Shown: piece by piece, positions 12,701 through 12,829 of the stretch
Numbering within the stretch: position 1 is the first letter of the stretch
Layout of the letters: the number at the start of each line of letters is the position of its first letter
Assembly: GCA_019058295.1 (NCBI GenBank)
Contig: JAHPZI010000008.1
Coordinates: 98,965-143,211, forward strand
From: Promethearchaeota archaeon
GTDB lineage: Archaea; Asgardarchaeota; Lokiarchaeia; Sigyniarchaeales; SOKP01
Reading direction: 5' to 3'
DNA length: 44,247 nt
The notes under the pieces: model-generated
Told to the model about the DNA's origin: nothing
What the model saw: the letters and a program-made list of their open reading frames with translations, nothing else
Databases searched by the model: none
Made by a program: the position numbers and the translations under genes

Positions 12701-12829
12701 ATGAAAATAGTAAAGAAAGTAAAAAGAACTAGTGCTGCATGCAAATGTGGCGACAGTTGTATTTCAAATGGCTGTAAATGTGGAGACAGCTGTATTTCAA
12801 ACACTTGTAAATGTGGAGATTCCTGTTAA
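12701..12829 (+). CDS. 42-aa Cys-rich repeat peptide, putative RiPP precursor (alternative: metallothionein-like); missing from the ORF track
   Basis: Manual translation MKIVKKVKRTSAACKCGDSCISNGCKCGDSCISNTCKCGDSC*; repeats differ almost only synonymously; SD-like AGGT upstream; hairpin plus T-tract downstream. Confidence 0.88.
   Translation: MKIVKKVKRTSAACKCGDSCISNGCKCGDSCISNTCKCGDSC
12740..12826 (+). repeat. 33-bp tandem coding repeat, about 2.6 copies (CKCGDSCISNx)
   Basis: tgcaaatgtggcgacagttgtatttcaaatggc / tgtaaatgtggagacagctgtatttcaaacact / tgtaaatgtggagattcctgt. Confidence 0.95.

What the first reader, a model, noticed from the sequence alone, without database searches (positions are those of the whole stretch)
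12701..12829. Triple CKCGDSC core under protein-level selection, each copy containing a CX3D motif
Seen: an 11-aa period, CKCGDSCISNG / CKCGDSCISNT / CKCGDSC-stop. Differences between copies are synonymous (tgc/tgt, ggc/gga, gac/gat, aat/aac, and a Ser switch agt/agc to tcc) except the linker Gly/Thr. That pattern indicates a translated, selected peptide rather than a neutral DNA repeat. Each unit has C-x3-D (C14-D18, C25-D29, C36-D40) overlapping C-x3-C. Established: PapB links Cys sulfur to Asp C-beta in CX3D motifs. Inference: three Cys-Asp thioether rings with six Cys left for metal binding or disulfides, or a multi-core precursor. Alternative: with 9/42 Cys, CxC motifs and no aromatics it could be a metallothionein-like peptide.
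Basis: partly seen in the sequence, partly recalled or inferred. Interest (0 to 1): 0.85.

Follow-up and report, generated by a model that had tools for sequence, protein, structure and literature searches.

The report
Cysteine-repeat peptide with radical-SAM maturase

Summary
ORF 12701-12829 (+) reads leader plus three CKCGDSC units, and the copies differ almost only synonymously.

The gene is real. I collected 33 distinct relatives, all keeping a basic leader (MKIVKK-type) and one to three C-K-C-x3-C units. Synonymous sites are nearly saturated (pN/pS 0.2-0.3).

The peptide always occurs in genomes that also carry an RRE-radical SAM-SPASM enzyme (here 11113-12447, -) and a small three-Cys helical protein (10841-11086, -). 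In the window's family, in-frame peptide genes were found in 20 of 24 genomes with the small protein and in 0 of 111 without it. The same three-gene set, with a single core, occurs in Archaeoglobus sulfaticallidus and in other archaeal contigs.

A complex model places the leader on the enzyme's RRE (score 0.78, best control 0.02). This may partly reflect solved look-alike complexes.

The CX3D/PapB reading fails its own test. Asp sits at that position in only 5 of 33 peptides, is shifted in 7 and is absent from 21. A stand-alone metallothionein is also unlikely.

Best reading: precursor of an undescribed archaeal rSAM/SPASM peptide system with Cys-centred, Asp-independent chemistry that is still unknown. 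First-reader notes of this scan flagged the same enzyme/small-protein pair in three other genomes.

The parts
12701..12829 (+). Precursor peptide gene (42 aa plus stop): leader residues 1-13, then three C-K-C-G-D-S-C units separated by ISNG and ISNT
   Evidence: Orthologues: (alignment A5). pN/pS 0.21-0.29.
12701..12739 (+). Leader (MKIVKKVKRTSAA). M1 and K8 are invariant and K2, I3, K5 nearly invariant in 24 relatives
   Evidence: Alignment A5. In the complex model residues 1-6 and 8-13 touch the enzyme's N-terminal domain.
12740..12760 (+). Core unit 1 (CKCGDSC)
12773..12793 (+). Core unit 2 (CKCGDSC)
12806..12826 (+). Core unit 3 (CKCGDSC), followed directly by TAA. In 32 of the 33 relatives the last Cys is the C-terminal residue; one version (L133/L135) ends Cys-Ala
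12641..12648 (+). TTTAAATA, an archaeal TATA-box-like element 53 nt before the ATG (inferred promoter), with AGGT 10-13 nt before the ATG
   Evidence: Read from the sequence. Inference only; the bacterial-type promoter scan is not informative for archaea.
12832..12875 (+). Weak hairpin (12832-12859) followed by a T-run (12861-12875): likely transcript end
   Evidence: -9.7 kcal/mol, z -1.6, not significant on its own. T-runs are the usual archaeal terminator signal (established knowledge).
11113..12447 (-). RRE-radical SAM-SPASM enzyme (444 aa), divergent from the peptide gene across a 253-bp spacer
   Evidence: Pfam Radical_SAM 2.5e-23. All NCBIfam equivalogs are far below their cut-offs. AF2 model pLDDT 87; full-length Foldseek hits to SuiB, SkfB, CteB, TigE and anSME. 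PDB profile hits.
12163..12447 (-). N-terminal peptide-recognition (RRE-like) domain, about residues 1-95. D35 and E37 are invariant
   Evidence: Model has strands 13-17, 21-25, 30-34 and helices 36-42, 51-55, 60-75. Leader contacts at residues 29-41 and 65-76. Invariants from A4. Pfam does not detect the domain by sequence.
12064..12087 (-). CX3CX2C radical SAM cluster motif (C121, C125, C128)
   Evidence: Invariant in 29 homologues
11413..11496 (-). Acidic, low-confidence insert (residues 318-345), absent from the orthologue on contigs L002/L003
   Evidence: pLDDT below 50
11116..11412 (-). SPASM-type C-terminal domain with seven invariant Cys (350, 366, 402, 407, 413, 417, 436)
   Evidence: Alignment A4. 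NCBIfam SPASM-family models align through residue ~440. Structure matches. The Pfam SPASM model itself does not hit.
10841..11086 (-). Small helical three-Cys protein (81 aa), 26 nt downstream of the enzyme gene. C26, C29, F31, Y43 and C45 are invariant
   Evidence: A3. AF2 pLDDT 89. No fold or sequence match in the PDB. Always next to the enzyme gene.

Best explanation
The 42-aa ORF is the precursor peptide of a conserved, apparently uncharacterised archaeal three-gene system. The parts are a very short peptide (basic leader plus one to three C-K-C-x3-C units ending at or next to the C-terminus), an RRE-radical SAM-SPASM enzyme, and a small three-Cys helical protein.

Proposed mechanism:
1. 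The leader binds as an extra strand to the beta3/alpha3 face of the enzyme's N-terminal recognition domain (predicted).
2. Each Cys-triad unit is then fed to the active site and receives a Cys-centred radical modification. An intramolecular thioether of the sacti/ranthi type is most likely (inferred from the enzyme class only).
3. Aspartate is not the required acceptor.
4. The small three-Cys protein, co-transcribed with the enzyme, is a metal- or Fe-S-binding helper such as an electron donor, chaperone or carrier (inferred).
5. No protease or exporter lies nearby, so the product probably stays in the cell, perhaps as a thiol- or metal-active peptide (inferred).

The triple core is a Loki-family expansion of an ancestral single core.
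For: Real gene under selection: 33 distinct relatives keep the leader and the Cys pattern. pN/pS is 0.21-0.29 at near-saturated pS.

Linkage to the enzyme pair:
- The enzyme gene and the small-protein gene are adjacent in every locus that held both.
- The peptide gene was found in 29 of the 35 Asgard genomes that have the small protein.
- In the window's family, in-frame leader+CKC genes occur in 20 of 24 genomes with the small protein and in 0 of 111 without it. Presence and absence go together within genera g1, g2 and g5.
- The trio recurs with a different gene order in Archaeoglobus sulfaticallidus PM70-1 (Asulf_02007 locus), in MAG GCA_002494625.1 and in other contigs.

Enzyme class: CX3CX2C and seven SPASM Cys are invariant. 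The model matches SuiB, SkfB, CteB and TigE over its full length, including the N-terminal domain.

Leader docking: complex score 0.78 (runs 0.78, 0.78, 0.75) against a best control of 0.02. That mark was reached by 58 of 80 solved complexes and 2 of 110 mismatched pairs. The runs share at least 48% of their contacts and the partner's pLDDT is at least 38. Leader residues 1-13 sit on enzyme residues 29-41 and 65-76.
Against: There is no experimental or expression evidence. The chemistry is not predictable: the nearest solved enzymes make thioethers (SkfB, CteB), C-C bonds (SuiB, TigE) or formylglycine (anSME). No acceptor residue other than Cys and Lys is conserved in the core. In several genomes the peptide gene lies 6-118 kb from the enzyme pair or on another contig, which is looser than a typical RiPP cluster. 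The small protein, which is always adjacent, could itself be the substrate. The complex pass may reflect solved RRE-leader complexes (SuiB-SuiA, CteB-CteA) rather than this pair, and my own alignments were used, so the calibration holds only roughly. The relatives are kin, so the co-occurrence counts overstate independence.
Confidence: 0.7

Rival explanations
1. One reading: a PapB-like ranthipeptide. [quoted passage not shown]
For: This peptide and its closest relatives (G167, G168, the ENA contigs) do have C-x3-D in every unit. PapB is an RRE-rSAM-SPASM enzyme that works repeatedly on repeated motifs. It tolerates Cys-Asp spacings of 0 to 6 residues (PMC9413430) and can also use a C-terminal carboxylate (PMC12373016). 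All family members end in Cys or Cys-Ala, and C3-x3-C7(COOH) has the CX3D spacing, so a carboxylate-directed link could still apply to the last unit.
Against: Asp and Glu are absent from every core in 21 of 33 peptides, and Asp is shifted by one position in 7. Internal units of the GGG and GSA types have no carboxylate at all. The PapB family model scores 65.4 bits against a cut-off of 340. A residue that selection does not keep cannot be the defining acceptor of the family.
Confidence: 0.1
2. The peptide is an unmodified metal-binding (metallothionein-like) or thiol-redox peptide. The radical SAM enzyme acts on something else, most plausibly the adjacent small three-Cys protein, which carries nearly invariant Glu residues and could take Cys-Glu links like QhpC/QhpD.
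For: The peptide has 21% Cys, CxC motifs, small residues between the Cys and no aromatic residues. There is a weak Metallothio_PEC hit, E 0.076. The small protein is the invariably adjacent gene and has three invariant Cys plus nearly invariant E34, Q36, E37, E40 and E42. The peptide gene is sometimes far from the enzyme. Thiol-redox genes recur near the cassette in other contigs.
Against: The leader is as conserved as the core and is the part the model docks onto the recognition domain; metallothioneins have no such leader. Single-core forms have only three Cys in 18-21 residues. The peptide was never found without the enzyme pair. The metallothionein hit is below threshold. The small protein is a confidently folded helical domain (pLDDT 89), unlike typical rSAM peptide substrates.
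Confidence: 0.13
3. The ORF is not a functional gene. It would be a neutral tandem DNA repeat, or a Cys-rich regulatory leader ORF for the neighbouring operon.
For: It is short, and no protein-family model or source name was found for it. No RNA run holding the locus is listed.
Against: The residues are conserved despite saturated synonymous change. The gene lies upstream of, downstream of, divergent from or far from the enzyme genes in different lineages, which rules out a cis-acting leader ORF. The repeat number varies from 1 to 3 while the frame, leader and stop are kept.
Confidence: 0.02

Closest known systems
PapA/PapB (freyrasin, ranthipeptide)
   Same: An RRE-rSAM-SPASM enzyme acts on a peptide with a repeated short Cys motif. 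This window's peptide has the CX3D spacing. Repeated processing of repeated motifs is plausible.
   Different: The Asp/Glu acceptor is not conserved in the family. The enzyme is far below the PapB family cut-off (65 vs 340 bits). The leader is only about 13 residues. A conserved small three-Cys partner protein is present, which the PapB system does not have as far as I recall.
SCIFF/CteB (thermocellin) and SkfA/SkfB (sactipeptide) thioether maturases
   Same: They are among the closest solved enzymes by sequence profile and by fold, including the N-terminal recognition domain. Their substrates are also Cys-rich.
   Different: No SCIFF model hit for the peptide. The core is only seven residues with Cys at positions 1, 3 and 7. 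No conserved Thr, Met or other acceptor is present. The system is archaeal.
SuiA/SuiB (streptide, Lys-Trp C-C cross-link)
   Same: Best structural match over the full length (E 7e-17, TMq 0.63). The core has a nearly invariant Lys.
   Different: There is no Trp or any other aromatic residue in the core, so the SuiB chemistry cannot apply as such.
CrpA/CrpB/CrpC of Methanococcus voltae (PMC13692751)
   Same: An archaeal SPASM radical SAM enzyme with an RRE installs ranthionine links on a repeated Cys-rich substrate encoded in a three-gene cluster.
   Different: CrpA is a large protein with a 47-residue leader, 17-residue repeats and a C-x-x-Q/D motif. CrpC belongs to TIGR04463, which is not among the 25 best NCBIfam matches shown for the enzyme here.
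PqqA/PqqD/PqqE and MftA/MftB/MftC (peptide-derived cofactors)
   Same: A three-part logic: a very short peptide modified near its C-terminus, an rSAM-SPASM enzyme and a small partner protein. Conservation looks more vertical than that of an antibiotic.
   Different: In those systems the small partner is the RRE. Here the RRE is fused to the enzyme and the small protein has an unrelated helical fold with no PDB match. The core residues differ (Cys rather than Glu/Tyr or Val-Tyr).
Metallothioneins
   Same: High Cys content, C-x-C and C-K-C motifs, small residues between the Cys, no aromatic residues, modular repeats.
   Different: No model hit above threshold. The peptide has a conserved basic leader. 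It always co-occurs with a radical SAM enzyme. Single-core forms have only three Cys.

Membership tests
PapB-type ranthipeptide system | Maturase scores above the curated cut-off of the PapB family model (NF047865) | tested here: not met
   65.4 bits against a cut-off of 340
PapB-type ranthipeptide system | Core keeps Cys paired with a downstream Asp/Glu acceptor (CX3D) | tested here: not met
   Asp is at core position 5 in 5 of 33 peptides, at position 6 in 7, and absent from all cores in 21. No Glu occurs in any core.
PapB-type ranthipeptide system | Thioether from Cys S to a beta- or gamma-carbon | not testable with these tools
   Needs MS/MS or NMR of the modified peptide
RRE-radical SAM-SPASM RiPP maturases (general class) | CX3CX2C radical SAM motif in a Radical_SAM domain | tested here: met
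   PF04055 at 2.5e-23. C121, C125 and C128 are invariant in 29 homologues.
RRE-radical SAM-SPASM RiPP maturases (general class) | C-terminal SPASM domain with the seven-Cys pattern for two auxiliary clusters | tested here: met
   C350, C366 (G-x4-C), C402, C407, C413, C417 and C436 are invariant. NCBIfam SPASM-family models align to about residue 440. Fold matches to SuiB, CteB and anSME. Caveat: the Pfam SPASM model gives no hit.
RRE-radical SAM-SPASM RiPP maturases (general class) | N-terminal winged-helix peptide-recognition element that binds the leader | tested here: met
   Met on predicted models only, not by measurement. The model shows three strands and three helices in residues 13-75. 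Full-length alignments to SuiB and CteB. Complex score 0.78 against a best control of 0.02, with the leader on residues 29-41 and 65-76. Pfam does not detect the domain by sequence.
RRE-radical SAM-SPASM RiPP maturases (general class) | Short precursor with leader and core, encoded with the enzyme | tested here: met
   Adjacent in the window and in most loci. Elsewhere in the genome in some.
SCIFF (six Cys in forty-five) peptides | Peptide matches the SCIFF family model | tested here: not met
   No NCBIfam family hit for the peptide at E up to 0.1
Metallothionein | Match to a metallothionein family model above threshold | tested here: not met
   Only Metallothio_PEC, 13.8 bits against a cut-off of 31.8, E 0.076
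Metallothionein | Cys-rich with CxC motifs, few or no aromatic residues | tested here: met
   9 Cys in 42 residues, three C-K-C motifs, no aromatic residue
Metallothionein | Binds metal clusters through the thiolates | not testable with these tools
   Needs native MS or ICP on the peptide
Sactipeptide | Cys S to alpha-carbon thioether installed by the rSAM-SPASM enzyme | not testable with these tools
   SkfB is the best PDB sequence hit (8e-24), but the chemistry cannot be read from sequence

The most novel reading that the evidence does not exclude
The trio could be a peptide-derived cofactor or metal/thiol-carrier pathway of anaerobic archaea, comparable in logic to PQQ or mycofactocin. The C-terminal C-K-C-x3-C unit would be converted by the radical SAM enzyme into a compact sulfur-rich redox or metal-binding group. 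The small three-Cys protein, of no known fold, would act as its dedicated carrier or assembly partner. Loki-type Asgard archaea would have multiplied the core to make three units per peptide.
Probability: 0.15. Interest if true: 0.85.

Novelty: new variant of a known kind. Interest (0 to 1): 0.58.

Why it matters
Radical SAM/SPASM peptide maturation is well known in bacteria but barely explored in archaea. Nothing of this kind was found described for Asgard archaea.

This finding defines a compact system: an 18-44-residue peptide, one enzyme and one small protein of unknown fold. It is conserved from Archaeoglobi to several Asgard lineages.

The core's only fixed residues are three Cys and a Lys, so the chemistry cannot be the known Cys-Asp, Cys-Thr or Lys-Trp types. 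It is therefore likely to be a new cross-link or a new use of an old one.

A cultured host, Archaeoglobus sulfaticallidus PM70-1, carries the single-core version. That makes direct peptidomics and heterologous reconstitution feasible.

The result also corrects an attractive but wrong motif-based assignment (CX3D = PapB).

Tried and rejected
- Expression: no RNA holder is listed for window 10800-12900, so nothing can be said about expression.
- Word-based homologue search with the peptide found only one relative. The family was recovered only by scanning loci and genomes for the motif.
- The search for related loci with the small-protein alignment used one narrow pattern and returned only close Promethearchaeota relatives.
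- Fold searches for the small protein gave nothing usable: Foldseek best E 2.2, VIA-align best Z 3.8, PDB sequence profile best E 0.053. The Atlas search found only unnamed clusters.
- Pfam does not see the RRE or the SPASM domain by sequence, even at E 10.
- The bacterial-type promoter/terminator scan is uninformative here. The hairpin after the stop codon is not significant (z -1.6).
- Single CKCGxxC pattern hits in genera g11 and g12 turned out to be chance matches without a leader. Leader+CKC pattern hits in genomes without the small protein are out of frame, contain stops, or lie in a thioredoxin (WCGPC) gene.
- No peptide gene was found for G154, G160, G275 and G276. G306 and G308 were not searched genome-wide.
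- Some distant double-domain small proteins (P0150, P0157) are not clearly next to an equivalent enzyme.
- Literature searches found no description of this family. The library is incomplete, so this is not proof of novelty.
- Rejected idea: a Cys-rich attenuation leader ORF. The gene's position relative to the enzyme genes varies between lineages.

Full report
**1. Observation**

The + strand at 12701-12829 is an ATG-to-TAA frame of 42 codons. It encodes a 13-residue basic leader followed by CKCGDSC-ISNG, CKCGDSC-ISNT and CKCGDSC-stop.

Tandem Repeats Finder reports a 33-nt period with 2.3 copies and 86% matches. Codon by codon, the three units differ by 4, 4 and 2 synonymous codons. The only non-synonymous change is the Gly/Thr linker codon.

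**2. It is a real gene**

A word-based search of 5.8 billion proteins found only one relative. It is 76% identical and lies on seven ENA contigs. Scanning related loci and genomes for the motif recovered many more:
- 24 distinct versions in Asgard genomes (alignment A5);
- three more distinct versions in distant Asgard lineages;
- six in non-Asgard or unassigned contigs.

All share a leader of the MKIVKK-x-K type and one to three units with Cys at unit positions 1, 3 and 7. Lys at position 2 is kept in all but one. In 32 of the 33 the last Cys is the final residue; one version ends Cys-Ala.

Against eight orthologues of equal length, seven of them divergent, pS is 0.72-0.97 and pN is 0.17-0.25, giving pN/pS of 0.21-0.29. 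The eighth is nearly identical. In 56 core units the fixed residues use TGT and TGC about equally, both Lys codons and four Gly codons. This is purifying selection on the protein, not a neutral DNA repeat.

A TATA-like TTTAAATA lies 53 nt before the ATG, and a T-run follows the stop codon. These are inferences only.

**3. Genomic company**

Head-to-head with the peptide gene, across a 253-bp spacer, lies a 444-aa radical SAM protein (11113-12447, -). An 81-aa protein (10841-11086, -) follows it after 26 nt.

On the ENA contigs the same three genes stand in one direction: peptide, enzyme, small protein. The enzyme is 56% identical and the small protein 83% identical to the window's copies.

The small protein was found in 35 of 400 genomes of the phylum. 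Wherever the contig allowed, a homologue of the enzyme lies directly beside it. The peptide gene was found in 29 of those 35 genomes. It is usually adjacent, but in several genomes it lies 6, 9, 12 or 118 kb away or on another contig.

In the window's own family (135 genomes), clustered core motifs and in-frame leader+CKC genes occur in 20 of the 24 genomes that have the small protein. They occur in none of the 111 that lack it. All pattern hits in those 111 genomes are out of frame or contain stops.

Presence and absence go together even within genera (g1, g2, g5). The genomes are kin, so these counts are not independent trials.

**4. Reach beyond Asgard**

A profile of the small protein finds 86 clusters among 1.8 billion representatives, in single- and double-domain forms. 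In six contexts from five of these clusters the small gene overlaps or abuts the start of an rSAM gene of 378-399 aa that is about 30% identical to the window's enzyme. These contexts are:
- Archaeoglobus sulfaticallidus PM70-1 (hypothetical protein Asulf_02007, CP005290);
- MAG GCA_002494625.1;
- JGI, Logan and ENA contigs.

A single-core peptide with the same leader type and a C-K-C-x3-C end lies just upstream or downstream.

The ancestral form is therefore one core. The triple core is an expansion within the Loki-type family. Even there the repeat number varies: one copy in a genome of the same genus as the window (G168), and two in G162 and G278.

**5. The enzyme**

Pfam sees only the Radical_SAM domain. 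All NCBIfam equivalog models are far below their cut-offs: AhbD 115 bits against 500, DynA 89, AlbA 72 and PapB 65 against 340.

CX3CX2C (C121, C125, C128) and seven C-terminal Cys in the SPASM pattern are invariant in 29 homologues.

The AlphaFold model (pLDDT 87) has three strands and three helices in residues 13-75. It aligns over its full length to SuiB (E 7e-17, TMq 0.63), SkfB, CteB and TigE, then to anSME. A sequence profile hits the same PDB entries.

The architecture is that of an RRE-rSAM-SPASM peptide maturase. The nearest solved enzymes perform different chemistries, so the class does not predict the reaction.

**6. Does the peptide bind the enzyme?**

A complex prediction of the enzyme (alignment A4) with the peptide (alignment A5) scored 0.78 (runs 0.78, 0.78, 0.75). 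The best of three controls scored 0.02. In the tool's calibration the pass mark was reached by 58 of 80 solved complexes and 2 of 110 mismatched pairs.

The runs share at least 48% of their contacts, and the partner's pLDDT is 38-45.

The confident contacts are leader residues 1-6 and 8-13 against enzyme residues 29-41, 65-76 and 309-317. This is the strand-plus-helix face used by known recognition elements. The invariant acidic D35 and E37 face the conserved Lys residues of the leader.

Complexes of this type have been solved (SuiB-SuiA, CteB-CteA). The pass therefore shows likeness to them and does not prove binding. My own alignments were used, so the calibration holds only roughly.

**7. 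The Asp test**

PapB does link Cys to the Asp beta-carbon in CX3D motifs, and it tolerates spacings of 0-6 residues (PMC9413430). In this family, however:
- Asp is at core position 5 only in the window's closest relatives and in one unit of G173 (5 of 33 peptides);
- Asp is at position 6 in 7 peptides;
- Asp is absent from all cores in 21 peptides, including the whole of genera g3, g5, g6, g10 and g13 and all non-Asgard members.

Positions 4-6 hold only small or polar residues. Asp is thus one of several tolerated small residues and not a conserved acceptor.

A partial rescue is conceivable. PapB can also cross-link to a C-terminal residue through its carboxylate (PMC12373016). All members end at or next to a Cys, and C3-x3-C7(COOH) has the same spacing as CX3D. 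This cannot serve the internal units of Asp-free triple cores.

**8. The small protein**

It is more conserved than the enzyme: 70-98% identical within the Loki-type family. It folds confidently (pLDDT 89) into a four-helix domain with invariant C26, C29, F31, Y43 and C45 and nearly invariant acidic residues.

It has no detectable fold or sequence relative in the PDB and only a sub-threshold DUF7175 hit. Other Asgard lineages carry it as a tandem double domain.

Its role is open. It could be a metal or Fe-S helper, a carrier, or itself a substrate.

**9. Verdict**

The reading as a 'selected, translated peptide linked to a radical SAM maturase' is supported. The CX3D/PapB chemistry and the free-standing metallothionein alternative are not.

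I found no paper describing this family. First-reader notes of this scan had flagged the same enzyme/small-protein pair in this genome and in three others.

I rate it a new variant of a known kind: an rSAM/SPASM peptide system with a new precursor type and a new partner protein, and with unknown chemistry.

Noticed in passing
window 12815-12847: A 17-nt direct repeat (consensus GGAGATTCCACTTAAGC, 1.9 copies, 87% matches) spans the stop codon. The last codons of unit 3 are repeated once more, out of frame, just after TAA. This looks like a remnant of the slippage or duplication that multiplied the core.
   Followed up: no
window 11413-11496 (enzyme residues 318-345): A 28-residue acidic, low-confidence insert lies between the radical SAM core and the SPASM domain. 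It is absent from the 56%-identical orthologue on contigs L002/L003. Residues 309-317, just before it, touch the leader in the complex model.
   Followed up: partly
G159: contigs C124 (L098) and C275 (L055): One related genome carries two copies of the triple-core peptide gene that differ by one leader residue. Only one of them is next to the enzyme pair.
   Followed up: partly
L002, L003, L136, L138: Thiol-redox genes recur beside the cassette in other lineages. L002/L003 have two thioredoxin-like genes, two CCG (HdrB-like) genes, ferredoxin-thioredoxin reductase B and glutaredoxin. L138 has a DsbH-type thioredoxin gene abutting the small-protein gene. L136 has rhodanese and rubrerythrin. The window itself has none. 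This may hint at a thiol or metal role.
   Followed up: no
L063:4822-5244, L065:5012-5437, L072:5047-5484: In other Asgard families the small three-Cys protein is a tandem double domain of about 140 aa. In L061, L068 and other loci two single-domain copies lie side by side.
   Followed up: partly
L133/L135:2955-3014: The peptide of MAG GCA_002494625.1 ends Cys-Ala instead of Cys, so a strictly C-terminal Cys is not universal.
   Followed up: no
window 10305-10838 (+) and 12932-13468 (-): Two Ras/Rab-like small GTPase genes bracket the three-gene set (Pfam Ras 2e-45 and 6.5e-29). This is typical of Asgard genomes and there is no evident link to the peptide system.
   Followed up: no
L003:2382-3206: A heliorhodopsin gene lies directly after the cassette on an ENA contig of the related organism.
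   Followed up: no
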